The notes under the pieces were generated by a model that did not search any database, was not told where the DNA came from, and saw nothing but the letters and a program-made list of their open reading frames with translations. A program made the translations under genes and the position numbers. Of a stretch of DNA of 36,980 bases, positions 4,206-17,074 are shown in pieces; within the stretch, counting starts at the first letter, position 1, and each line of letters begins with the position of its first letter. Source of the stretch: a virus. Its lineage: Duplodnaviria; Heunggongvirae; Uroviricota; Caudoviricetes. Location of the stretch: IMG/VR virus record IMGVR_UViG_2713896902_000002, positions 1 to 36,980 of that record; one strand, written 5' to 3'.

Positions 4206-7028
4206 GTGGCAACGGAGTACATCAGAGACTGGCAACAACCACGCCATGCAGTCGGTCGCGAGGGGACGGGGGAGCCTGTCCGTCCCTCCCTTCTTTCTTC
4301 CTGGCTGGATGCCTACCGGGCAGAGAACGAGCGCCGCCAGGAAATGGCTGATGCGGCGTTCTCTGCCGCACCGCTGGGCAATCTGATTAATAAAAGCCTG
4401 GACGCACAGGAAAAACAGGACAAAGCCATCACACTGGCAAGAGAAGCCAGAAAACAGGCACGCGGCGCGGTGGATGAAGCAATTGCCGCACTACGTCTGC
4501 TGCCGTCCTATCTGCGTGATCCGCTTATCCGCCATCTCTCTTTCCTGCGCAAAAAACAGGAATCCGATCGTCAGAAAGGCAAAAAGAGCTGGCAGGCTGA
4601 ACGCTACGCGCGCGGAACCCTGCGCAAAATATTCGAACGTCTGGAGCGCACCGACAGACGCTGGCTGACACCGGGTTATCGCTCCCTTGCCGGGCGTGAA
4701 CGCCTGGATGATTTACTTTACCTGCCGCAACTCAACAAACACCAGATACAGACGCTGGCCGTCATGACAGCGGCGATGTTCAGCAGCACCTTCGAAAAAC
4801 TCTGCGATGACTTTGGCGCGACCGATGGCGAGCTGACCATGGATATAACGCTGAAGGCGTATCAGATGCTGGCCCGCATGGCGTTACATCTGCACACAGT
4901 GCCGCCGCATTATGACGCACTGACAACAGACAAAGACCGGAAGAACGAACCGGACACGGAGCTGCTGCCGGGTGCAATCCTCCGCCTGACCTGTGCGGAC
5001 TGGTGGAAACGCAAATTGTGGCTTTTACGTTGCGAATGGAGAGAGGAACAACTCCGCGCTGCCTGTCTGGTTTCCAGAAAAACATCGCCCTATCTGAGTC
5101 AGGAGGCATTAAGTGAATTTCGCGCACAGCGCGAGAAAACACGCGATTTCCTGAAAAGTTTCATGCTGGAAAATGAAGACGGGTTCACGATTGATCTCGA
5201 GACGGTGTATTACGCGGGAGTAAGTAACCCGGTCCACCGTAAGGCAGAAATGATGGCCACCATGAAGGGACTGGAACTTCTGGCCGAAGCCCGTGGCGAC
5301 AGAGCGGTATTTCTGACCGTTACCTGTCCGTCAAAATATCACGCAACAACGGAGAACGGTCATCCGAATCCCAAATGGAACGGCGCCACCATGCGCGATT
5401 CCAGCGATTACCTGGTTAACACTTTTTTTAAGGCGGTCCGCAAAAAACTGAATCGCGACGGCCTGCGCTGGTATGGCATCCGCACGGTGGAGCCACACCA
5501 TGACGGCACCGTGCACTGGCACATGATGGTCTTTGCACATCCTGAAGAAATCGACAGCATCGTGGACATCACCCGTGATATTGCCATTCGCGAAGACCGC
5601 CACGAGCTGGGCAATGACATAACTCCGCGCTTTAAGGCAGAGTACGTCGACGGTTCGAAAGGTACGCCGACCAGCTACATCGCCACCTACATCGGAAAGA
5701 ACCTGGACAGCCGCGCCGTGGATGGCATTGACCCGAAAACAGGCAAGCCACGCGTTGATCACGAAACCGGAAAATCAATGGCCGAGAGCGTGGAACGCGC
5801 CATCGGCTGGGCGCGCCTTCACCGCGTCCGCCAGTTCCAGTTCTTTGGTATCCCCTCCCGTCAGGTATGGCGTGAACTCCGCCGCCTTGCCAGTCAGATG
5901 GCCCGCAACCCGGAAGGTCCACAACGTCTGGAAAATGACGCAATGGATGCGGTACTCGCTGCCGCTGATGCCGGGTGTTTTGCCACCTACATTGAGAAAC
6001 AGGGTGGCGTACTTGTTCCACGCAAGGATTACCTGATTCGCACCGCCTACGACCTCGCAGAAGAGCTGAACGATTACGGCGAGCAAAGCGTACAGATTTA
6101 CGGGATCTGGTCGCCACAAATCGGGGAATCTTCCCGCGTGTGCACGCACCCGGATAACTGGAAGCTGGTAAGACGTAAACCGGAAGCGGAAGACAGCGCC
6201 AACGAAAATGGTTTTGACCTTCAGGGCGGCCCTGCCGCCCCTTGGACTCGTGGCAATAACTGTCCCCGTGTACAGGAAACGAACAACAACGGGACAGAAC
6301 AGCCGGAAGAACGGCCAGCACCGTGGCCGCAGCTCCCTGATGGCGTTGAAGTGAACGAATGGATGCGCTCACTGAAACGGCACGAACGCCGGGCGCTGAT
6401 GCGTTCGCTTCGTGACAAACAGGCAAAAAACAGCAGTGATGAAATGCAGAGCTGGACACAGAGCCGCAAACAGCAGCGGCCTTTGCCTGATAACCACGAA
6501 TTACTCGCTAAAGAATGGCGGGAATCTGCCGAATCTCTCGGCCTGCATATCGGTGAACAGCAGATGCAGCACCTGTTACGGGGCGGCAGCCTGTACGTTG
6601 ACGGCAGCATCATTGCACCGCAGGGATTTGAAATTGTACGCAAACCGGATACCCGCCCGGACAGCCGAATCACGCAGCTCTGGCAGCGCCTGAGCCGTAA
6701 TCACGGCGTAAGCAGCACAGAGATCCGCCATAACCCGGTCGCCAGCTATCTGGAACAACTGGGGGCATCAGACCCCGAAGCCGCCGCACGTCTGGCATCC
6801 ACACTTCAGCAGGACCAGAACACCATGAAAACCCCCGTTACCGTGTTTTCTGACATGCTGCGCGCCATCCGTGACGCAGAGCACGCACAGAGAATCAGTG
6901 AAACCACTGAACGCGCCCACCGCAAAGCAGACCTGCTGCGGGGTAGCCTGACCAGTGGAAACAAAAAACAGACAGAAACGGGACTCACAAATCCCGTAAA
7001 TGAGCAAAAAACGCGCCGCGATATATGA
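4206..7028 (+). CDS. A: P2 gpA-family rolling-circle replication initiator (HUH endonuclease), GTG start, extended C-terminus
   Basis: 940-aa ORF; HUH motif in GTVHWHMMVF and tyrosine-containing YIATYIGKN; position after early genes as in P2. Confidence 0.88.
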   Translation: MATEYIRDWQQPRHAVGREGTGEPVRPSLLSSWLDAYRAENERRQEMADAAFSAAPLGNLINKSLDAQEKQDKAITLAREARKQARGAVDEAIAALRLLPSYLRDPLIRHLSFLRKKQESDRQKGKKSWQAERYARGTLRKIFERLERTDRRWLTPGYRSLAGRERLDDLLYLPQLNKHQIQTLAVMTAAMFSSTFEKLCDDFGATDGELTMDITLKAYQMLARMALHLHTVPPHYDALTTDKDRKNEPDTELLPGAILRLTCADWWKRKLWLLRCEWREEQLRAACLVSRKTSPYLSQEALSEFRAQREKTRDFLKSFMLENEDGFTIDLETVYYAGVSNPVHRKAEMMATMKGLELLAEARGDRAVFLTVTCPSKYHATTENGHPNPKWNGATMRDSSDYLVNTFFKAVRKKLNRDGLRWYGIRTVEPHHDGTVHWHMMVFAHPEEIDSIVDITRDIAIREDRHELGNDITPRFKAEYVDGSKGTPTSYIATYIGKNLDSRAVDGIDPKTGKPRVDHETGKSMAESVERAIGWARLHRVRQFQFFGIPSRQVWRELRRLASQMARNPEGPQRLENDAMDAVLAAADAGCFATYIEKQGGVLVPRKDYLIRTAYDLAEELNDYGEQSVQIYGIWSPQIGESSRVCTHPDNWKLVRRKPEAEDSANENGFDLQGGPAAPWTRGNNCPRVQETNNNGTEQPEERPAPWPQLPDGVEVNEWMRSLKRHERRALMRSLRDKQAKNSSDEMQSWTQSRKQQRPLPDNHELLAKEWRESAESLGLHIGEQQMQHLLRGGSLYVDGSIIAPQGFEIVRKPDTRPDSRITQLWQRLSRNHGVSSTEIRHNPVASYLEQLGASDPEAAARLASTLQQDQNTMKTPVTVFSDMLRAIRDAEHAQRISETTERAHRKADLLRGSLTSGNKKQTETGLTNPVNEQKTRRDI

Positions 7029-7073
7029 AGCGCGCACAAAACAGGCAAAAGCGGGATTTAAAAATCCTGTAAC
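6979..7073. repeat. two imperfect 22-bp repeats, each an internal dyad (cgggactcacaaatcccgtaaa / cgggatttaaaaatcctgtaac), upstream of parM
   Basis: Seen at 6979..7000 and 7052..7073, about 73 bp apart, spanning the end of A and the parM leader; candidate ParR operator/centromere. Confidence 0.3.
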
Positions 7074-7104: not shown

Positions 7105-8064
7105 ATGAAAATTTGTATCGACGACGGCTCCACCAACATCAAGCTGGCATGGACTGAGAACGGCGAACGCAGCAACGCCATCAGCCCGAACAGCTTCAAG
7201 TCGGAATGGTCTGCGCCGTTCGGTGGCACGCAGCCCGCGAACTACATGCTTGATGGCGTGCGCTATGGTTTTGATCCGGTCAGCGATCGCTTTGTCCAGA
7301 CGACCGACACGCAATACCAGTACAGCGATGTGAATGTAATCGCCATTCACCACGCGCTGGTCAAATCAGGCATCACACCACAGGAAGTGGATGTGGTTGT
7401 CACCCTGCCACTGAGCGAATATTTCGACACAAACGCACAGCCGGACATGGCCAACATCAACCGCAAAAAAGCGAACGTTATGCGCCCGGTGGAGTACCAG
7501 AACGGCAAAGCATTCACTATCCGTAACGTACGGGTTATGCCTGAATCCATTCCGGCTGGCTTTAAAGCACTGGCTGACATGAGTCCGTTTGAATCCCTGC
7601 TGATTGTGGATTTAGGCGGAACCACGCTGGATGTGGCAAAGGTTCAGGGACAACTGGCAGGTATCAGCCAGGTGTTTTGCGATCCACACGTAGGCGTTTC
7701 CCTGATGGCCGATGCCGTACTGTCGGTGATGGCCACTAACGGTATGCGTACCAGCCACCACATCGCCAATACCATTATCGAACATCGCCATGATGAAGCC
7801 TGGCTGCGCCAGCACATCCACAATGACGCGCATTACGACAACCTGATGGCGGTTATTCGTGAAAAGGAAGAAACACTGAAACAACGCGTGATCCGCGCGC
7901 TGGCGGTTTTTTCGGGTTACGGGCGGGTGATGGTTGTCGGTGGAGGGGCGGAGATTGTGGCACCCGCTATCCGCAAAGCCTGCGGAGTTAATGCGACTTT
8001 CATCGCGGACGGGGTGCCACAGTATGCTCTGGTTAATGGGCTGTACGCAATGGACAAGGAGTAA
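7105..8064 (+). CDS. parM: ParM/StbA-family actin-like segregation ATPase
   Basis: MKICIDDGSTNIKLAW...YQYSDVNVIAIHHAL...VMPESIPAGF...LIVDLGGTTLDV...VMVVGGGAEI tracks remembered plasmid R1 ParM (MLVFIDDGSTNIKLQW...WQYSDVNVVAVHHAL...VMPESIPAGY...LIIDLGGTTLDI...VMVIGGGAEI). Confidence 0.85.
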   Translation: MKICIDDGSTNIKLAWTENGERSNAISPNSFKSEWSAPFGGTQPANYMLDGVRYGFDPVSDRFVQTTDTQYQYSDVNVIAIHHALVKSGITPQEVDVVVTLPLSEYFDTNAQPDMANINRKKANVMRPVEYQNGKAFTIRNVRVMPESIPAGFKALADMSPFESLLIVDLGGTTLDVAKVQGQLAGISQVFCDPHVGVSLMADAVLSVMATNGMRTSHHIANTIIEHRHDEAWLRQHIHNDAHYDNLMAVIREKEETLKQRVIRALAVFSGYGRVMVVGGGAEIVAPAIRKACGVNATFIADGVPQYALVNGLYAMDKE

Positions 8065-8068
8065 ACCA

Positions 8069-8380
8069 ATGACGACACCAACCAGACGGATAAGTTTCTA
8101 TCTGAAGCCTGCGGCCGTCAAGAACGAAAGCGAAGCATGCGCCTGGCTGGACAGCCTTACACCAGAAGCCCGCAAAAGCGGCCAACGCGTGGCTTTTCTG
8201 GCCGGGCTGGCACTTCTGAAAATGGATCCAGCAGAGGCTTACCGACTGGCTGCATGGGCTGACGATGAGGCGTTATCTGTGACACAAACCAGGACAGAAC
8301 GCCCCGTGTCACAGCCAGTACCAACCGCACAGATAACCAGTCAGATGGCCGGAAATATCCGGGCGCTATTTCCTGAGTAA
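8069..8380 (+). CDS. parR: ParR-like ribbon-helix-helix centromere-binding protein
   Basis: RBS caaggag then ATG 8069; RRISFYLKPAAVKNE...LDSLTPEARKSGQRVAFLAGLALLKMDP...IRALFPE resembles remembered R1 ParR (RRTIAFKLNPDVNQ...LDSIPQGERSRLNRAALTAGLALYRQDP...LRSLFPKE). Confidence 0.7.
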   Translation: MTTPTRRISFYLKPAAVKNESEACAWLDSLTPEARKSGQRVAFLAGLALLKMDPAEAYRLAAWADDEALSVTQTRTERPVSQPVPTAQITSQMAGNIRALFPE

Positions 8381-8561: not shown

Positions 8562-9707
8562 ATGAACATTCAACAGCGTATAGCAGAACGCTTGGTTCAG
8601 GCCAGAAACGACGCAGGAATGAGTGCAAGCGCCGTCGCAGATGCGATCGGTGTTGTTCGTCAAACCTACAGTAAGTTTGAGCAGGCGCTAGGCGTCCCAA
8701 GCGTTACCCAACTCATCATGCTCTGCAAGATTTTCGATAAGCCTATCGGGTATTTTTATGAGCAAGATGATGGCGAGTTTCGTTTTGCAATGCGAGCAGA
8801 TAGTCCGGATTTGTTGGATGCCAAACTTCGCAATGAGTTGATTGAAAAGTTAAAAAATATCAATGCAATTGAGGAAGCTGCTGATGCTAATTTGCCAGAA
8901 GATCTTCCTAACTCAATGCCTATTTTTACCGCCAAAGCAGAAGATTTGCGAAGAGTCGAAGATAAGGCTATGGAAGAACGTTTCCGTCTTGGTATAGGAA
9001 ACGCTACTTGCGTTGGTGACATTGTAGCCATTTTGGAAGCATCGGATATTCGAGTAATCCCGTTCAATCGCGAAGAAACCGATAAAGGGATGGTATTCGG
9101 ATTTTCTGCGTTTTCGAACAAATACGGTACCGCGATTTATGTAAATGTTCACGATAGCATTTCAATAGAACGTCAAATCTTCAGTATTTGCCATGAATAT
9201 GCTCATCTTATCTTCCACCGTGATGAGTATGATGGCCCTGCTAAAAGCTATAAAACCAATGGCAAAGCAATTTCACCGGAAGAAAAAGTTGCTAATCACT
9301 TTGCTGCTTGTTTTTTGGTACCAGAAAGCGCATTGCGAAAACAATTCGTCATGCAAGGTGGTGGATGGGCGTATGAGGAAACCGTCCTTAGACTAAAAAG
9401 CATTTTCAGAGTATCAGCCACTTGCATCATCGATCGTCTTAGTAAATGTAATTTAATTAATCAACAAAACACTAGATACCTATGGGCAACCGCCAATCGT
9501 AAAGGTTGGAAGAGACACGAGCCAAATCCCATTAGGGAAGCACTAAATTATAAAGGCCGCCTAACCGTCTTATCGCGTAAAGCATGGGAAGCCGGTTCCG
9601 CGTCGGAAACCTTCATATCTGAACTTTTAGAATTAGACAGAAAAGCTCTCAGCAATCTTCTGGATGAATGGTACGACGAACAGGAGGCCGGAGAGGATGC
9701 CGTTTGA
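8562..9707 (+). CDS. Xre-family HTH fused to ImmA/IrrE-type (M78-like, COG2856) zinc metallopeptidase
   Basis: N-terminal HTH (MNIQQRIAERLVQARNDAGMSASAVADAIGVVRQTYSKFEQALGVPSVTQL); HEXXH in SICHEYAHLIFH; AT-rich upstream region, RBS aggtga; visibly AT-richer than flanking phage genes. Confidence 0.8.
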   Translation: MNIQQRIAERLVQARNDAGMSASAVADAIGVVRQTYSKFEQALGVPSVTQLIMLCKIFDKPIGYFYEQDDGEFRFAMRADSPDLLDAKLRNELIEKLKNINAIEEAADANLPEDLPNSMPIFTAKAEDLRRVEDKAMEERFRLGIGNATCVGDIVAILEASDIRVIPFNREETDKGMVFGFSAFSNKYGTAIYVNVHDSISIERQIFSICHEYAHLIFHRDEYDGPAKSYKTNGKAISPEEKVANHFAACFLVPESALRKQFVMQGGGWAYEETVLRLKSIFRVSATCIIDRLSKCNLINQQNTRYLWATANRKGWKRHEPNPIREALNYKGRLTVLSRKAWEAGSASETFISELLELDRKALSNLLDEWYDEQEAGEDAV

Positions 9708-10215
9708 ATGCCCCAGATGTGTTATCGATACGAATGTACTGTCTGATTTTTACGAAGGTAAATGCTTAGATCTTATCTGGCAAATTTACCCGGGTGGTGT
9801 GTGGATTGACCCCTATGTCTGCGAGGAACTAAAAGCTAAATACAATCTTGATGTTCAGGAACAGCTTACACGCCTGCAACTTCCATACAATTTCACCAAT
9901 GATTACGAACCTGAACATTTTATTGAAATGGCTGAGATAAAAAATCGCAGGAGAGCATTGAAGTATGCGGACATAAGCTGCGTTGTTAACGCGAGAATAC
10001 ATGATGCAACATGTCTTTCGGCGGATAATGCGGTTTATAAAACGTGTGCGGAACGCGGTGTAAAAGCCGCCCGCCACGGAGGGCTACTTCAAGAGGCTGT
10101 GCGCAGGAGACTTATCCACAAACAACAAGCCTTAATGCATTTCCAATTTTTCCTAGATCGTGGGTTAACGATGAAATCTTCTGTTCGAGAACAGATTCTT
10201 GCCAGTTTCGAATGA
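9697..10215 (+). CDS. PIN-like domain nuclease (predicted effector/toxin); alternative start 9664
   Basis: Start overlaps end of the HTH-peptidase gene (RBS caggagg); N-terminal VIDTNVL strand with Asp, later ADISCVVNARIHDATCLSADNAVY fitting the PIN D..IAA.A...L.T.D pattern. Confidence 0.55.
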   Translation: MPFECPRCVIDTNVLSDFYEGKCLDLIWQIYPGGVWIDPYVCEELKAKYNLDVQEQLTRLQLPYNFTNDYEPEHFIEMAEIKNRRRALKYADISCVVNARIHDATCLSADNAVYKTCAERGVKAARHGGLLQEAVRRRLIHKQQALMHFQFFLDRGLTMKSSVREQILASFE

Positions 10216-10248
10216 ATCCAAATCTCTCTTGCCATATTGGATTATATT

Positions 10249-10274
10249 GAGCCGCAATAGCGGCTCTTTTTTTT
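10249..10274 (+). terminator. rho-independent terminator (gagccgcaatagcggctc + T8)
   Basis: Hairpin followed by tttttttt directly after the PIN-like gene stop. Confidence 0.75.
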
Positions 10275-10290
10275 GTTTATTTATAACAAG

Positions 10291-10324
10291 TGCGCAATGC
10301 ACAATTGTGCACAAATTTGCACAA
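10291..10324. repeat. TGCACAA direct-repeat array at 10-bp phasing with embedded perfect palindrome TGCACAATTGTGCA
   Basis: tgcgcaa tgcacaattgtgcacaaatttgcacaa: heptamer at 10298, 10308, 10318 plus variant at 10291; palindrome 10298..10311. Confidence 0.5.
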
Positions 10325-10697
10325 TTTTTTTGAACGACTTTTTACCCTTCCAGCCCGCATGGTGGCTGGTTCCGTCAAGGATCCGTGCGTGCACAAAAAA
10401 AACGCATTTTTTCTGCGCGCAGGTGACGGGGGAACAGCCCGCGTTTCAGGGGGTAAATAGCATTCCCCGAACGATGTCGCAGAGACACAACAGAATGGCT
10501 GTATTTCTCACGCTGAGCATGAAAAAACGTGAGGGCTTTTGATTTGATGGGGTGACAGATAAGGCCGTCAGAATCGCACTGAGGCGGCGAGAACATGCAG
10601 TCAACACGGTAGGATTGCGTAAGAGCCTGACCGTCGATGATGGCAATAAGCTGGAAGACGTCGTGAAATTATTTGATTGATACAGGAGCTGGAGAGT

Positions 10698-10740
10698 CGG
10701 GGCATAAATTTTTTATGCCCCGGCGAGGCAGCAGACAAGC
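10698..10740. other. candidate cos region: 11-bp-stem hairpin followed by GGCGAGGC... 19-mer
   Basis: cggggcataaa-ttt-tttatgccccg hairpin, then ggcgaggcagcagacaagc whose first 8 nt match remembered P2/186 cohesive ends (GGCGAGGCGGGGAAAGCAC); located between hotspot and Q as in P2. Confidence 0.3.
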
Positions 10741-10824
10741 GAAGCGCGTCAGTGATACAGCACCTTGCCGACCATCATTCATGGGCGCAAAATACACACA
10801 AAGGAAATCAATGGAGGCTGTCTT

Positions 10825-11349
10825 ATGGTCATTAATTACAAGCAGTTAAGAGAAAAACGAGATCAGGTAAAGGAGAGTTTTCGCCGCAATGAAGACCTGA
10901 CCCCGCTTGTACGCATTGCCCAGGGAATTGTTGATGCTTATGAAATCTCGCTGGAGCTGCCATCACAGACCTGGACAGATAGCGACGGTAATCGCCAGCA
11001 TTACGTTTCATGCGGACTGGAAACAGCAGAAGGGTTTCGCAGAATGCCTTTATCCCAGATTCCTGCCGCTACCCCCAAAGCAAGAGGCAGCAATGATGAG
11101 CGAAAACTGACTTTCAGTATTGAAACAGTTGTTGACGACACACCTGGCGAAGTCGCATTCGTGCTCACTCCCCTTTCGATCACAATGTATAACGATGAAA
11201 TACAGGTTCGCGTTAATAATAATATCGTGCCACTTAAAGAAGGTAATTCCCCCTACACCACCGTTTGTGAAGCGATTCAATATTACGTTCTCTCTGAAAT
11301 TGATAATCTCAGACCTGACGGCACCCGGAAAATGGTTCAACTCTGGTAA
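10825..11349 (+). CDS. hypothetical protein (moron between candidate cos and portal gene); ORF extends to 10765
   Basis: RBS ggagg before ATG 10825; ORF convergent with Q and ending at a bidirectional terminator; no recognisable motifs. Confidence 0.5.
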   Translation: MVINYKQLREKRDQVKESFRRNEDLTPLVRIAQGIVDAYEISLELPSQTWTDSDGNRQHYVSCGLETAEGFRRMPLSQIPAATPKARGSNDERKLTFSIETVVDDTPGEVAFVLTPLSITMYNDEIQVRVNNNIVPLKEGNSPYTTVCEAIQYYVLSEIDNLRPDGTRKMVQLW

Positions 11350-11355
11350 AAAGGA

Positions 11356-11380
11356 CAGCCCCATCACGGGGCTGTTTTTT
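11356..11380 (+). terminator. bidirectional rho-independent terminator (cagcccc-atcac-ggggctg + T6)
   Basis: Hairpin flanked by A-run upstream and T-run downstream; overlaps the last codons of Q. Confidence 0.7.
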
Positions 11381-12410
11381 CATCAAGCAGTGCGTAAGGG
11401 TTAAAGCGGATCACCTCTTCGCCAAGCCAGTCATTGATGTGCTTCATGGCCTCCATGACGGGCATCAGCTCGTTAATTGCGTAAACCCGCGCAGCCTTCT
11501 CCACATCACCAAACGCACTTTTTTCGCCCGGCATCGCCCCCATCAGTTGCGGCGGAACGCGGTGCGCAGCCAGCACATCATCACGGGACGCCGCCTTAAC
11601 ATTCATGAACTCATCCTTTGCGGTGATCTGCTGGAACGGCAAAATTTGCACACCTTCTTTACCCCCGTTGGGCGCATGAATGAGCACGTTTTTAAACGCA
11701 CCACCACCACGCGCACCCTGTAGCGTTTCTTTCAGGGAGTCCATGCTTTCGCGGTCTACCCGTGCTGCACCGATGTAGACGATGCACCCGGCGTGGGATC
11801 CATTGTCGTAATACAGCTTTCTGAACGCGTCCGCCGAATGAGACAGGCTGGCCGAGAGTAATGCGCCGAGATATTCCGGCATGCCGTAGATTTCCTGGTT
11901 AATATCCGGGTTCATCAGGTGGCACACTTTGCCAGGGCGAAACTGAAACGCATCCTTGCCATCCTGCACATACCACCACGATTCGAGATCGCTTCCGCGG
12001 CGCATGTATTTCGCCAGTGCGTGTCGTAATTTCAGCGGTTCGCCGAGCATATTGCTTCGAAGTTCAAGGAATGCGTTACCGAACACAAACCAGTCCAGCG
12101 CCAGCGCCGAGAAATCCTGCCGGGAAAGCAGCGGGTGCGGGATATAGCAACCGAGCAATACATTGCGCTTAAAGTAAAGCGCAGACTGATGCCAGGACGT
12201 TTGCCGGGCAGCTCTTGCCAGACCGTACCAGTCCACCGGGGTTTCATACCACCGACCGTTATCGGCACAGTACATATTGTCCAGCAGGTCATGCCCGGTC
12301 AGGCGATAAGGACCATCAAATGTGAACGCGCTGAGCGACGATTCTTTCCTGAGCGCATCAGCGAGATCAATGCGTGAACTCATGCGCACTTTTTTATTTT
12401 TTCTGCTCAT
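11364..12410 (-). CDS. Q: portal protein (P2 gpQ family)
   Basis: 348-aa ORF at the P2 portal position, leftward, downstream of P; typical length. Confidence 0.85.
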   Translation of the reverse strand: MSRKNKKVRMSSRIDLADALRKESSLSAFTFDGPYRLTGHDLLDNMYCADNGRWYETPVDWYGLARAARQTSWHQSALYFKRNVLLGCYIPHPLLSRQDFSALALDWFVFGNAFLELRSNMLGEPLKLRHALAKYMRRGSDLESWWYVQDGKDAFQFRPGKVCHLMNPDINQEIYGMPEYLGALLSASLSHSADAFRKLYYDNGSHAGCIVYIGAARVDRESMDSLKETLQGARGGGAFKNVLIHAPNGGKEGVQILPFQQITAKDEFMNVKAASRDDVLAAHRVPPQLMGAMPGEKSAFGDVEKAARVYAINELMPVMEAMKHINDWLGEEVIRFNPYALLDEKTAP

Positions 12411-14161
12411 CAGAACTCCATAACCGTGAAACGCTCGTTTTCTCCTTCGCCGCCAATCGGTTCGTTAATGACAGCAAGCATGGTTGCCCAGGCCAGGTCG
12501 CCGTGGCTGATCCCCCTCGCGCGGTCCGTTTCGTAAGTGATGAAACCCCCCGCTGTTTTCACCTTACGCACGGCATTAAAGGCTGCGACCAGCTCGCGTT
12601 CGGCGCGATCGTATTCCCACCGCCCGGCACGCATTATTTGCAGCATTTTCAGTACCAGCGACCGTTTTGATGACAGCGTGAAGGTGTACGGAATAGCAGC
12701 AGGGAAAAACCGTTTCACTATCTGATAAACAGCCTCCCCGTTCCCGCCCGTCACATCAATGCCGATGTGTTCCACGTTGTAGCGATACGTGAAATCTTCA
12801 ATGACTCTGGCCTGTTCTTCAAACTCCAGCCCCTGAACGCGTCGCGTCTCCACCGTTCGAAAACGGCCACCAGGAACAGCCGGAGGAACCACCACGGATA
12901 CAGCGCCGCTGTCGCCGTTGCCACTGCTGCCGTTTGCGTCATACCCAATCCATACCGGACGATTCCCCATCGGGCGGGGAGCAAAAGGTTTCCAGTCTTT
13001 CCAGTCGTCGTATCCGTCAACACCGCAGCCAATCAGGATATTCAGGTTAAATGCCGATTCCCCTTCGCGGACAAACTCACACATATAGAGATTGAGGAAC
13101 TCGTCTTCGGTGTTTTCATCACGAATTTCGTCAATATCGGTGTGTTTCCAGCCGTGATTAACCACGTCTTCCAGCGTGACAATTTGCCGCCACGTCCGGT
13201 CAGGGCAGATAAGCCCGTTATGCAGCGTTTTCCAGTCCACAGAAAAACGCTGGCGTTTATGCGTGGCCTTTTTCTCGTTCCAGCGGTCGCCGTTCCAGTA
13301 GACGTATGCCTCATGCGTTTCGGTGGATGGCGTGGAGAAGTAGGTACGCCGCAGTCCGCTGAGGGTTGCCATAGCGCCAGCCACCTTGCGCAGTTCAGCA
13401 AAGCGACTGACCCAGAAAAATTCATCAAAATAAAAATTACCCGTGTAGGACTGCGCCGTCGCCGCAGAAGTGCCGAGAAAATGCAGCTCTGCGCCGTTGG
13501 AGAGGATGATTTTATCGCCCCCTTTCAGCTCAACATCAACTTCAGATGCAGTCTTCTGAATAATGCTTTTAAACTGGAACGCCTGACGACGCGACGCAGA
13601 CAAAAAAATCTGGTTACGCTGGTAAGGTTGCGCCACATCGTCACGCAGCGCCATCAGCAGTGCTTCCTGTGCAAAATACCAGGTCGCCCCAATCTGTCGG
13701 GATTTCAGGATCATTCTGTTACGTATCCCGGCTTCCCTGCAAAGGGTCAGGGAGTCAAACCAGCCCCGCTGATGCCACTCCAGCCTGCTGATGATTTTTT
13801 CCCGCAGTGCGGCAATCTGTTCCGGCGTGAAATGATTTTTAAGTTTTTTCGCCCGGCCTTTCTTTCCTGTGGCCGTCGCATCCGGCTGGCCATCATGCAG
13901 TTTTTTAAGCTGCCGGGTCAGCAGGTCTATTTCTTTGAAGTCACCACCTGTTTTATTCTGTTTTTCAGTAAGCTGGATGAGGCGCGCATCGATGGACTGC
14001 GTGACACGCTGCACGGGTGGCGTTTCATCCCACTGGTCGCGTTTTTTCCACGCATAAATCGTGTTCGGGTTTATTCCCATCAGACGTGATATTTCTGCGG
14101 GCGGATAACCCTGCCAGTAAAGTTGCCGCGCACGCTGGCGCACAAAAGCGTCCTGAATCAT
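12410..14161 (-). CDS. P: terminase large (ATPase) subunit (P2 gpP family)
   Basis: 583-aa ORF divergent from O; P2 Q-P/O-N-M-L organisation. Confidence 0.88.
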   Translation of the reverse strand: MIQDAFVRQRARQLYWQGYPPAEISRLMGINPNTIYAWKKRDQWDETPPVQRVTQSIDARLIQLTEKQNKTGGDFKEIDLLTRQLKKLHDGQPDATATGKKGRAKKLKNHFTPEQIAALREKIISRLEWHQRGWFDSLTLCREAGIRNRMILKSRQIGATWYFAQEALLMALRDDVAQPYQRNQIFLSASRRQAFQFKSIIQKTASEVDVELKGGDKIILSNGAELHFLGTSAATAQSYTGNFYFDEFFWVSRFAELRKVAGAMATLSGLRRTYFSTPSTETHEAYVYWNGDRWNEKKATHKRQRFSVDWKTLHNGLICPDRTWRQIVTLEDVVNHGWKHTDIDEIRDENTEDEFLNLYMCEFVREGESAFNLNILIGCGVDGYDDWKDWKPFAPRPMGNRPVWIGYDANGSSGNGDSGAVSVVVPPAVPGGRFRTVETRRVQGLEFEEQARVIEDFTYRYNVEHIGIDVTGGNGEAVYQIVKRFFPAAIPYTFTLSSKRSLVLKMLQIMRAGRWEYDRAERELVAAFNAVRKVKTAGGFITYETDRARGISHGDLAWATMLAVINEPIGGEGENERFTVMEF

Positions 14162-16273: not shown

Positions 16274-17074
16274 ATGATTACTCCTGCACAGCAACACTGG
16301 CAGAACGTGATGGCACAGCGCGCAGGCCGGGCGAATGAAGGTGTTGACCACGCCGCACGTACCGCGCATGAAGAGGTTCTGTATCGTCTGCGTCTGGCAC
16401 AGGCCCGGCTTAAGGGCGTACAGGCCAGAAGCGCGAAAGCCGCCATCAAAAAAGAGTTGTTGCCGGACTTTTCCGGCTGGATTGAGGGAACGCTGGAGGC
16501 TGACGGCGGGCAACAGGACGAAGTGATTGCCACGCTGATGGTGTGGGCGATTGACTGTGGCGATCTTCCGCTGGCGCTGCGTATTGGTGCGTATGTGGTC
16601 CGTCACAACCTCATCATGCCGGATAACTTTGGTCGTACTGCTGCCACAGTGCTGACCGAAGAAATCTGCAACCCAATACTGACGCAGGCCGGAACGGATG
16701 CCGACGCGGATTTATCCGCCTTTATCGAACCACTGGACACACTTTGGGAAATTGTCGCCAACCAGGACATGCCGGACGAAGTGCGCGCCAAATTATGCAA
16801 GGCGTGCGCCTTTGCCCGCCGTGGCCTGACCGATGCGGACAGCATGGCCTCATCACTGAAGCTGCTGCGCGAAGCGATGCACCTGAACCCGAACGCAGGT
16901 GTGAAACGCGAGATTGCAACCCTTTCCCGCGCCCTGAAAAAAGCCGATTCCGCAGCCGCACCGGAAGACGCCAGCACACCGCAGGCGCAGGACGAAAGCA
17001 GCAAAAGTAAAAAGACAACGCGGAAGCCTGCAACACGAAAAACCACCGCGACGCAGAAGGCGAAGCGCGGTTAA
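16274..17074 (+). CDS. M: terminase small/endonuclease subunit (P2 gpM family)
   Basis: KKELLPDFSGW...MPDEVRAKL...GVKREI resembles remembered P2 gpM (KKRELLPFW...MPDEVRAKL...GVKKEI); basic C-terminus. Confidence 0.85.
   Translation: MITPAQQHWQNVMAQRAGRANEGVDHAARTAHEEVLYRLRLAQARLKGVQARSAKAAIKKELLPDFSGWIEGTLEADGGQQDEVIATLMVWAIDCGDLPLALRIGAYVVRHNLIMPDNFGRTAATVLTEEICNPILTQAGTDADADLSAFIEPLDTLWEIVANQDMPDEVRAKLCKACAFARRGLTDADSMASSLKLLREAMHLNPNAGVKREIATLSRALKKADSAAAPEDASTPQAQDESSKSKKTTRKPATRKTTATQKAKRG

What the first reader, a model, noticed from the sequence alone, without database searches (positions are those of the whole stretch)
10291..10324. Phased TGCACAA heptamer array with an embedded perfect 14-bp palindrome after the PIN-like gene
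Seen in sequence: TGCACAA at 10298, 10308 and 10318 (10-bp spacing, same helix face), a variant TGCGCAA at 10291, and palindrome TGCACAATTGTGCA at 10298..10311, directly after the terminator of the HTH-peptidase/PIN operon. Inference: a multi-site protein-binding element, for example an operator for the HTH protein, a ParR-type centromere, or a terminase-recognition element near cos.
Basis: seen in the sequence. Interest (0 to 1): 0.45.

Follow-up and report, generated by a model that had tools for sequence, protein, structure and literature searches.

The report
Phased terminase-recognition repeats beside cos
The three evenly spaced TGCACAA copies are the outer part of the DNA-packaging (cos) signal of a P2-family prophage, most likely docking sites for the phage's packaging enzyme; they are not an operator or a plasmid-type centromere, and the same layout recurs, with other short words, across P2-like phages and their satellites.

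Summary
TGCACAA occurs at 10298, 10308 and 10318, a pattern seen in 0 of 300 shuffles. The TGCGCAA at 10291 and the perfect palindrome are specific to this window and are not conserved.

The window is a P88-like (P2-family) prophage. Homology with relatives that carry other cargo genes starts at 10298, so the array opens the conserved cos module. It does not close the HTH-peptidase/PIN (RmrA-like) operon.

A fourth TGCACAA lies at 10390, exactly 72 bp after the third copy. The predicted 19-nt cos sequence follows at about 10422-10440.

P2, 186, P4 and about 40 portal-anchored prophages from many genera have the same four-site layout, near -121/-111/-101/-29 from cos. The motif changes by lineage (TGCAT, GCACAA, GCGTCA, CCGTC), always in the distal and proximal sites together.

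Satellites without portal or terminase genes keep the array plus cos. The array occurs without ParMR and without this cargo.

Best reading: cosB-like terminase recognition sites. Which subunit reads them is unresolved. The N-terminal helix-turn-helix of the large terminase co-varies with the motif, and the small subunit was not tested. No binding or packaging requirement has been shown.

The parts
10249..10274 (+). Intrinsic terminator of the cargo operon (RmrA-like HTH-peptidase plus PIN). It belongs to the variable cargo, not to the array.
   Evidence: 7-bp GC-rich stem plus T8. Folding energy -14.1 kcal/mol, z = -5.0. Not present in relatives with other cargo.
10291..10297 (+). TGCGCAA variant. 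A chance near-copy in the variable flank, not part of the conserved element.
   Evidence: Homology with other phages begins at 10298.
10298..10304 (+). Distal site D1 (TGCACAA). This is the left edge of the conserved cos module.
10308..10314 (+). Distal site D2 (TGCACAA).
10318..10324 (+). Distal site D3 (TGCACAA). It is the best conserved distal site in the portal-anchored, pattern-independent loci.
10325..10331 (+). T7 tract directly after D3. Conserved in the GCACAA-class phages and possibly an intrinsic bend.
   Evidence: The bending role is inference.
10350..10369 (.). Central dyad CCAGCC-N8-GGCTGG between the distal and proximal sites.
   Evidence: Read. Similar GCCAG-N3-4-CTGGCGCGG dyads occupy the same place in other lineages. 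Function unknown.
10390..10402 (+). Proximal site P (TGCACAA) running into an A8 tract, exactly 72 bp after D3.
   Evidence: Conserved in all aligned relatives, although the IMG/VR scan did not select for it. The 72-bp spacing holds in 94 of 96 distinct P2-type segments.
10422..10440 (+). Predicted 19-nt cos cohesive-end sequence GGTGACGGGGGAACAGCCC. The exact cut positions are uncertain by about 3 nt.
   Evidence: Assigned by homology and position to the annotated cos of P2 (GGCGAGGCGGGGAAAGCAC) and to the cos of phiRSA1 and Smp131 quoted in PMC5694545 and PMC3931495. Conserved in phiT5282H, the satellites and L007-type phages. Not determined experimentally.
14030..14140 (-). Coding region for residues 8-44 of the large terminase gpP (gene 12410-14161). 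This is an N-terminal helix-turn-helix and a candidate reader of the motif.
   Evidence: Pfam Terminase_5 (E = 1.8e-26) and HTH_23 (E = 5.6e-7). The helix signature co-varies with motif class.
16274..17074 (+). gpM-like small terminase subunit, the alternative candidate reader.
   Evidence: Pfam Phage_term_smal, E = 8.4e-37. No helix-turn-helix family detected even at E <= 10.

Best explanation
The three phased TGCACAA copies (10298-10324) are the distal half of a four-site recognition array in the packaging site of this P88-like, P2-family prophage. The proximal copy is at 10390, exactly 72 bp (about seven helical turns) after the third distal copy, and the cos cleavage sequence follows at about 10422-10440.

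Proposed mechanism (inferred, not shown): several copies of the sequence-reading part of terminase bind the same face of the helix at the four sites. The 72-bp stretch between D3 and P may be bent or wrapped; it holds a T7 tract at its start, a central dyad, and P itself runs into an A8 tract. This assembly places the nuclease on cos and gives the phage, and any satellite carrying the same sites, packaging specificity. This is how lambda cosB works.

Which subunit reads the motif is open. The N-terminal helix-turn-helix of the large subunit gpP is the more concrete candidate. The small subunit gpM is the conventional one.

Shown here: the sites, their fixed positions, their co-variation, their linkage to cos, portal and terminase genes, and their retention in satellites. 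Inferred: binding by terminase, the need for the distal sites, and the geometry.
For: 1. Linkage. In 108 IMG/VR loci the array lies at a fixed distance from the portal and terminase genes, whatever the replication module (RepA 31-98% identical) or cargo. The conserved block begins at the first heptamer in four phages with different cargo and within 10291-10299 in 55 of 56 sampled E. coli records with other cargo.

2. Same architecture in phages with annotated cos ends. P2, 186 and P4 carry TGCAT at -123/-124, -111, -101 and -29 from cos.

3. Sample collected without reference to the motif. 80 loci were anchored on the portal gene, from Enterobacterales to Burkholderiales. Of 37 loci with a phased 5-mer in the distal zone, 29 have the same 5-mer in the proximal zone. 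The three control zones of equal size score 0, 3 and 0. Site positions are almost invariant.

4. Co-variation. The motif switches between lineages (TGCAT, GCACAA, GCGTCA/GCGTTA, CCGTC) in the distal and proximal sites together. P2/186 and P88-like phages both live in E. coli but use different words, which points to a phage-encoded reader rather than a host one.

5. Spacing. D3 to P is 72 bp in 94 of 96 distinct P2-type segments, although the sequence between them diverges.

6. Satellites. P4 keeps the TGCAT sites. A 15-kb P4-like satellite family, found in 66 E. coli genomes, has no portal or terminase gene. It shares with this window only the stretch from the first TGCACAA to about 25 nt past cos.

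7. Candidate reader. The gpP N-terminal helix-turn-helix changes at canonical base-contact positions in step with motif class: NT[IL]Y[AS]W[KR][KR] with GCACAA, PTVQSWK with TGCAT, STVASWK with GCGT, TTVHGWKD with CCGTC. In one TGCACAA phage whose terminase is only 66% identical overall (L010), the 41-residue region I counted by hand is 88% identical.
Against: 1. No binding, cleavage or packaging data exist for this element.

2. Later papers summarise the functional P2/P4 cos as a 55-bp core (PMC3931495, PMC5694545, PMC9594776, all citing Ziermann and Calendar 1990). The distal triple lies outside that core, so it may only stimulate packaging or may serve another cos-linked role.

3. The cos position in this window rests on homology alone (13 of 19 matches to P2) and is uncertain by about 3 nt.

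4. The co-variation involves about four lineages that are also phylogenetic groups. The link to the gpP helix could therefore be shared descent. gpM was not examined in the same way.

5. The IMG/VR set was collected with the exact triple heptamer as the search pattern. Heptamer invariance in that set is by construction. In the portal-anchored set, sites D1 and D2 are often degenerate.
Confidence: 0.7

Rival explanations
1. The array binds something other than terminase, yet is still part of cos biology. Examples are another phage-encoded architectural factor that shapes the cos region, or a feature that makes this spot the preferred crossover point for exchanging cargo cassettes.
For: The array coincides with the cargo/backbone junction in essentially all relatives. 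Rousset et al. 2022 (PMC9122126) note that the defence hotspot abuts cos and speculate about end-driven recombination. The distal sites lie outside the 55-bp core.
Against: A junction at the first site is what selection on an essential cis element would produce anyway. Distal-proximal co-variation, fixed 72-bp spacing and retention in satellites point to one reader acting together with cos. Satellites bring no packaging proteins of their own except a capsid gene.
Confidence: 0.15
2. It is a back-up intrinsic terminator or insulator that stops cargo transcription from running into cos. The inverted heptamers form the hairpin AATTGTGCA-caaatt-TGCACAATT, followed by T7.
For: The scan calls a terminator-like site at 10303-10326 plus T-run. 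In this window the fold gives a 9-bp stem.
Against: The stem depends on the window-specific TTG spacer. With the common TAG spacer the whole fragment folds at only -7.6 kcal/mol. In L047- and L010-type arrays there is no hairpin (z = +0.9 and +0.7), although the direct repeats and spacing are kept. P2, 186 and P4 sites form no such hairpin. A strong terminator already sits 24 nt upstream.
Confidence: 0.05
3. It is parC, the centromere bound by the ParR-like protein (8069-8380) of the ParM/ParR system.
For: ParM (StbA_N/ParM) and a Plasmid_stab_B protein are encoded 2 kb upstream. ParR proteins bind phased 10-11-bp direct repeats (general knowledge).
Against: 28 of 63 evaluable array-bearing loci have no ParM. 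phiT5282H, the Xenorhabdus-type prophages, P2, 186, P4 and the satellites have the same architecture without ParMR. Variable cargo separates parR from the array. A different repeat pair lies just upstream of parM (6962-6999 and 7035-7072).
Confidence: 0.03
4. It is an operator for the HTH-peptidase (RmrA-like antitoxin) encoded at 8562-9707.
For: Proximity only. The protein has an HTH_3 domain.
Against: Only 27 of 1138 E. coli records with the array region carry this cargo. The array is conserved with entirely different cargo. No TGCACAA lies upstream of the gene, where an autoregulatory operator would be expected.
Confidence: 0.02

Closest known systems
Lambda cosB (gpNu1-binding R3, R2 and R1 elements with the IHF site I1, next to cosN)
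   Same: Both have several copies of a short word next to the cohesive-end cleavage site: one close to the cut and the others about a hundred bp away, with room for a bend between them. In lambda these give terminase its specificity (established knowledge of lambda, from memory). Here the layout is one proximal and three distal sites with a 72-bp gap flanked by T and A tracts.
   Different: Here all four copies are direct repeats on one helix face, with 10-bp phasing. They lie on the side of cos away from the portal and terminase genes, which becomes the right end of the mature genome; lambda cosB lies on the Nu1/A side. No IHF consensus was recognised by eye. Binding is not shown.
The 55-bp core cos of P2, P4 and related phages (Ziermann and Calendar 1990, as cited in PMC3931495, PMC5694545 and PMC9594776)
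   Same: It is the same locus and the same 19-nt GC-rich cohesive-end type. The proximal site (TGCATTAAAA in P2/P4/186, TGCACAAAAA here) lies inside that core.
   Different: No paper I could read describes the distal triple, its fixed position or its lineage-specific word. The original 1990 paper and the Christie and Calendar review were not available to me.
ParR-parC centromeres of ParMRC plasmid partition systems (R1, pSK41)
   Same: Phased direct repeats with a period of about 10 bp, and a ParM/ParR pair present in this prophage.
   Different: The array does not co-occur with ParMR, and variable cargo separates it from parR. It is tied to cos instead.

Membership tests
cosB-type terminase recognition site of a cos phage | Lies next to the cohesive-end cleavage site | tested here: met
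   D1-D3 lie 98-124 bp and P 26-32 bp before the predicted cos at 10422-10440. Sites sit at equivalent positions relative to the annotated cos of P2 and the genome ends of 186 and P4. The cos position in this window is by homology only.
cosB-type terminase recognition site of a cos phage | Several copies of one recognition word | tested here: met
   Four TGCACAA copies. In 29 of 37 portal-anchored loci the distal word recurs in the proximal zone, against 0, 3 and 0 in control zones.
cosB-type terminase recognition site of a cos phage | Specificity matches the cognate terminase (word changes with the terminase lineage) | tested here: inconclusive
   Four motif classes track four signatures of the gpP N-terminal recognition helix. 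The classes are also phylogenetic groups, and gpM was not analysed.
cosB-type terminase recognition site of a cos phage | Bound by terminase and required for, or stimulating, packaging | not testable with these tools
   Indirect support only. Satellites lacking portal and terminase genes retain the array plus cos. PMC9594776 reports that a cosmid with longer cos flanks transduced better, which the authors suggest may be the cause.
P2-family 55-bp core cos | Falls within the ~55 bp conserved around the 19-nt cohesive ends | tested here: not met
   The array is at -124 to -98 from the predicted cos. Only the proximal copy at 10390 falls in the core-equivalent stretch.
ParMRC centromere (parC) | Co-occurs with parMR, normally directly upstream of it | tested here: not met
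   The array is 1.9 kb downstream of parR, beyond the cargo. 28 of 63 evaluable array loci lack ParM. P2, 186 and P4 have the architecture in the stretches of their records examined here, where no ParMR is annotated.
Operator of the neighbouring HTH regulator (RmrA-like) | Co-inherited with the regulator gene | tested here: not met
   The same cargo is present in 27 of 1138 E. coli records that have the array region.
Rho-independent terminator | Stable GC-containing hairpin followed by a U tract, conserved among homologues | tested here: not met
   The hairpin exists only with the window's TTG spacer. It is weak or absent in P88-, L047- and L010-type arrays.
Ogr/Delta late-promoter activator site (TGT-N12-ACA) | Conserved TGT-N12-ACA dyad about 55 bp upstream of a late promoter | tested here: not met
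   TGT(10306-10308)-N12-ACA(10321-10323) exists in the window. The first T is A in most relatives (TAG/AAG spacer). No sigma-70-like promoter is predicted downstream.

The most novel reading that the evidence does not exclude
Peduoviridae packaging specificity is written as a positional code: four copies of a lineage-specific 5-7-nt word at about -121, -111, -101 and -29 from cos. The code would be read by a helix-turn-helix domain fused to the N-terminus of the large terminase (gpP) rather than by the small subunit. Under this reading the word class (TGCAT, GCACAA, GCGTCA, CCGTC) defines which helpers can package which P4-like satellites and cosmids. Swapping a few helix residues (for example Y to Q at the position that tracks GCACAA versus TGCAT) together with the word would re-target packaging.
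Probability: 0.3. Interest if true: 0.65.

Novelty: new member of a known kind. Interest (0 to 1): 0.5.

Why it matters

It suggests that the functional cos of P2-family phages is about 145 bp, from the distal triple to the cut, rather than the 55-bp core usually quoted.

If the sites are terminase docking sites, three things follow:
- Their word class should predict helper-satellite compatibility, for example P2/186 with P4 against P88-like phages with the capsid-encoding satellite found here.
- They explain why the defence-gene hotspot of P2-like phages ends at one exact nucleotide.
- They give a design rule for P2/P4-based cosmids and transducing particles: include the distal sites and keep the 72-bp phasing.

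The possible role of a helix-turn-helix on the large terminase would be an unusual division of labour among terminases and can be tested directly.

Tried and rejected
1. My first guess for cos was GGCGAGGCAGCAGACAAGC at 10722-10740, after the hairpin at 10698-10722. I rejected it. That segment exists only in P88-type phages next to the portal stop, whereas GGTGACGGGGGAACAGCCC at 10422 is conserved in all lineages and in satellites and matches P2-type cos better.

2. Rfam search of 9900-11400 gave only sub-threshold chance hits.

3. The sigma-70 promoter scan found none near the array. A TTGCAC-N18-TTTACC reading is too weak.

4. Ogr/Delta TGT-N12-ACA site: present here but not conserved.

5. 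DnaA-box resemblance (TTGTGCACA against TTATNCACA, by eye): set aside, because the word differs between phages of the same host.

6. Terminator reading: the hairpin is not conserved.

7. ParR centromere and RmrA operator: contradicted by distribution.

8. Literature. Only the 55-bp core and 'hotspot adjacent to cos' statements were found. Ziermann and Calendar 1990 and the Christie and Calendar 2016 review are not held, so earlier mention of the distal repeats cannot be excluded.

9. PDB sequence searches for gpM and the gpP N-terminus found no solved relative. Structure prediction was not run.

10. One DNA alignment mixed strand orientations for some loci and was discarded. The alignment was redone.

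Full report
**Observation**

TGCACAA is at 10298, 10308 and 10318 on the + strand. TGCGCAA is at 10291. The palindrome TGCACAATTGTGCA spans 10298-10311. All of this begins 24 nt after a strong terminator at 10249-10274.

The heptamer is not over-represented in the window overall: 7 matches against 9.0 expected. The arrangement is exceptional, though. It is the only 7-mer repeated three times at a fixed 9-12-bp period in the window, and none of 300 dinucleotide-preserving shuffles produced any such triple. Four + strand copies occur within 100 bp, against at most two in any shuffle.

**Context**

The window is a P88-like (Xuanwuvirus, P2-family) prophage. The layout, is:

- GPA-type replication protein, 4206-7028
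- ParM, 7105-8064
- Plasmid_stab_B (ParR-like) protein, 8069-8380
- Cargo pair: an HTH_3 + Peptidase_M78 protein (8562-9707), which matches RmrA of the PADLOC database, and a PIN protein (9664-10215)
- The array
- A 194-aa ORF without family hits, 10765-11349
- Portal, 11364-12410 (- strand)
- Large terminase gpP, 12410-14161 (- strand)
- Small terminase gpM, 16274-17074

**The array opens the conserved backbone**

BLAST against phage records gives 16 hits at 90-95% identity. Fourteen of them start at query 146-149 (window 10295-10298) and the other two at query 196. An alignment with P88, vB_EcoM-569R5 and Citrobacter phage Shae_phiSM, which have three different gene sets upstream, shows unrelated sequence up to the first TGCACAA and near identity from there on.

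Among 1138 E. coli records with this region, only 27 share the PIN cargo. In an evenly spaced sample, 55 of 56 records with other cargo start their match at query 142-150, and 44 start exactly at 149, which is window 10298. So TGCGCAA at 10291 belongs to the variable flank. Most relatives have spacer TAG or AAG in place of TTG, so the perfect palindrome is a peculiarity of this window.

**What the array travels with**

I scanned IMG/VR with the pattern TGCACAA-N3-TGCACAA-N3-TGCACAA. In 108 of them a portal or large terminase gene follows on the opposite strand. The portal stop lies 350-500 bp from the array, or 900-1100 bp where an extra ORF is inserted.

These include phages whose portal is only 68-72% and terminase 66-80% identical to the window's, and whose RepA is 31-35% identical. 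Of 63 loci in which RepA is visible upstream, 28 have no ParM. The array is therefore linked to the packaging end of the genome. It is not linked to ParMR, the replication module or the cargo.

**The cos site and the four-site architecture**

My first guess for cos (10722) was wrong. The divergent IMG/VR loci show a P2-type cos (GGCGAGGCGGGGGAGCAAGC) about 100 bp after the array. The window has GGTGACGGGGGAACAGCCC at 10422-10440 in the same place. That sequence is conserved in phiT5282H, in L007-type phages and in satellites. The assignment is by homology to the annotated P2 cos and is uncertain by about 3 nt.

P2, 186 and P4 have cos features or genome ends in their records. All three carry three TGCAT copies at -123/-124, -111 and -101, and a fourth (TGCATTAAAA) at -29 from cos. 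The window has TGCACAA at -124, -114, -104 and -32. In every case the third distal copy and the proximal copy are 72 bp apart.

**A sample collected without the motif**

To avoid the bias of a pattern-based scan, I collected 80 loci from species-dereplicated genomes using only the portal protein. I then located a cos-like core with a regular expression. Fifty-three loci were usable.

In 37 of them a 5-mer is repeated at 9-13-bp phase in the distal zone (-145 to -80). In 29 of those 37 the same 5-mer occurs in the proximal zone (-48 to -15). Control zones of the same size score 0 of 37 (between the sites), 3 of 37 (further upstream) and 0 of 37 (beyond cos). The positions are nearly fixed: the core of the cos-nearest distal copy starts at -99 or -100 in 35 of 44 cases, and the proximal core at -27 or -28 in 37 of 44.

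The word differs by lineage:

| Word | Lineages |
|---|---|
| TGCAT(G/T) | P2/186-like prophages of Erwinia, Pectobacterium, Yersinia, Pantoea and others |
| (T)GCACAA | P88-like, Xenorhabdus, Photorhabdus, Providencia and some Pectobacterium, Citrobacter and Salmonella prophages |
| GCGTCA / GCGTTA | Collimonas, Glaciimonas |
| CCGTC(A/G) | Variovorax, Rubrivivax, Curvibacter |

It changes in the distal and proximal sites together. Among the 103 distinct IMG/VR segments, 94 have the proximal copy exactly 72 bp after the third heptamer and 2 have it at 71 bp. The 7 without it include the loci with no portal or terminase hit (for example L018). The sequence between the sites is only partly conserved.

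P2/186 and P88-like phages share E. coli as host but use different words.

**Satellites**

P4 has no terminase and keeps the TGCAT sites. Two IMG/VR loci (L107, L122) carry the TGCACAA array, the proximal site and the P88-type cos, but no portal or terminase gene within 12.7 kb.

In E. coli GF60 the element is about 15 kb and sits at a tRNA-Arg gene. It encodes an arm-type integrase, AlpA, an Icd-like protein, a Toprim (P4 alpha-like) protein, an Ogr/Delta protein and, unusually, its own P2-family major capsid protein. It occurs in 66 of 5426 E. coli genomes.

Its similarity to the window begins at the first heptamer and ends about 25 nt beyond cos. An element that must be packaged by a helper's terminase has thus kept exactly this module.

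**Rivals tested**

- Hairpin. The hairpin that makes the array look like a terminator depends on the window's TTG spacer. The whole fragment folds at -14.9 kcal/mol here, at -7.6 with the common TAG spacer, and not at all in the L047 and L010 types.
- Promoter. No promoter-like site is predicted.
- Ogr/Delta site. The TGT-N12-ACA match is not conserved.
- Known RNAs. Rfam gives nothing above threshold.
- ParR centromere. A better parC candidate, two 38-nt repeats each containing a small hairpin, lies just upstream of parM.

**Who reads the sites**

This is inference. gpM matches only Phage_term_smal, and no helix-turn-helix family appears even at E <= 10. gpP has an N-terminal Terminase_5/HTH_23 domain at residues 8-41. 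By the classical pattern, the sequence PAEISRLMG-INPNTIYAWKK would be helix 2, turn and recognition helix.

In the portal-anchored loci the recognition-helix signature follows the motif class: NT[IL]Y[AS]W[KR][KR] with GCACAA, PTVQSWK with TGCAT, STVASWK with GCGT, and TTVHGWKD with CCGTC. In one TGCACAA phage whose terminase is only 66% identical overall (L010), I counted the 41-residue helix-turn-helix region by hand and found it 88% identical.

This is suggestive, but it is confounded by shared descent, and gpM could not be examined because the loci do not reach it. No solved structure exists for either protein.

**Literature**

Papers I could read describe a 55-bp core cos shared by P2-family phages and P4 (PMC3931495, PMC5694545, PMC5247547, PMC9594776). 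[quoted passage not shown]

PMC9594776 notes that a cosmid with longer cos flanks transduced better. None of these papers mentions the distal triple, the 72-bp rule or the lineage-specific word. The primary 1990 paper and the 2016 P2 review are not held, so I cannot exclude an earlier description.

**Mechanism and comparison**

The best-supported reading is a cosB-like recognition array. Several terminase DNA-binding modules would sit on one helix face at four fixed positions. They would organise about 125 bp of DNA to the left of the cut and position the nuclease on cos.

It resembles lambda cosB in having several repeats with one near the cut and others further away. It differs in four ways:

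- All copies are direct repeats with 10-bp phasing.
- The array lies on the side of cos away from the terminase and portal genes.
- The word differs between lineages while the geometry stays fixed.

The distal triple lies outside the published 55-bp core. It may therefore enhance packaging rather than be required for it, and that is the main uncertainty.

**Verdict**

The finding is real and is not an operator or a centromere. It is one instance, present in over a thousand E. coli genomes, of a family-wide cos-associated site array. The kind is known (terminase recognition repeats at cos). As far as I could check, this particular architecture has not been described. It has practical use for predicting helper-satellite compatibility and for cosmid design.

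Noticed in passing
window 6962-6999 and 7035-7072: Two 38-nt direct repeats (79% identical), each containing a small hairpin (ACGGGACTCACAAATCCCGT / GCGGGATTTAAAAATCCTGT). They straddle the repA stop codon and lie just upstream of parM. This is a more plausible parC centromere or parMR promoter region than the heptamer array.
   Followed up: no
window 8562-10215: The cargo pair in the P2 defence hotspot is an RmrA-like HTH + M78 peptidase protein (PADLOC RmrA, E = 2.8e-35) followed by an overlapping PIN-domain protein (weak PDC-S70 hits). It looks like a RosmerTA-type toxin-antitoxin defence candidate with a PIN toxin. The same cargo is present in only 27 of 1138 E. coli records with this cos region.
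   Followed up: partly
window 10765-11349 (+): A 194-aa ORF with no Pfam or PADLOC hit lies between the cos-left region and the portal stop. Only a minority of relatives have an insert here: the portal stop is about 1040-1070 bp from the array instead of about 464 bp. This is a second variable slot next to cos.
   Followed up: partly
L122 (IMG/VR), L107, and L208 = E. coli GF60 NZ_CP172185.1 about 1,775,600-1,790,150: A roughly 15-kb P4-like satellite integrated at a tRNA-Arg gene. It encodes an arm-type integrase, AlpA, an Icd-like protein, a Toprim alpha-like protein, a second tyrosine recombinase, Ogr/Delta and its own P2-family major capsid protein, but no portal or terminase. It carries the TGCACAA array plus the P88-type cos. 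Found in 66 of 5426 E. coli genomes.
   Followed up: partly
window 14030-14140 (-), gpP residues 8-44: The large terminase carries an N-terminal helix-turn-helix (Terminase_5/HTH_23). Its recognition-helix residues track the cos motif class across about 50 prophages from many genera.
   Followed up: partly
window 10350-10369: A dyad, CCAGCC-N8-GGCTGG, lies midway between the distal and proximal sites. Other lineages have GCCAG-N3-4-CTGGCGCGG at the same place. It may be a separate binding site.
   Followed up: no
window 10698-10740: A perfect 11-bp inverted repeat (CGGGGCATAAA / TTTATGCCCCG) is followed by GGCGAGGC..., directly after the portal stop in P88-type phages that lack the extra ORF. 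It is probably the end-of-operon terminator. Its first 8 nt mimic the P2 cos and misled me at first.
   Followed up: partly
window 10441-10697: About 260 bp between cos and the hairpin are 90-93% conserved among P88-type phages. Small ORFs (47 and 42 aa) are annotated here in the P88 record. I did not test whether it is coding or non-coding.
   Followed up: no
L051 and L066 (IMG/VR): Contigs with no detected portal or terminase homologue carry TGCACAA triples built on the palindrome TGTGCACA next to a tRNA-like region. This looks like a different repeat element, possibly iterons, that shares the heptamer by chance.
   Followed up: no
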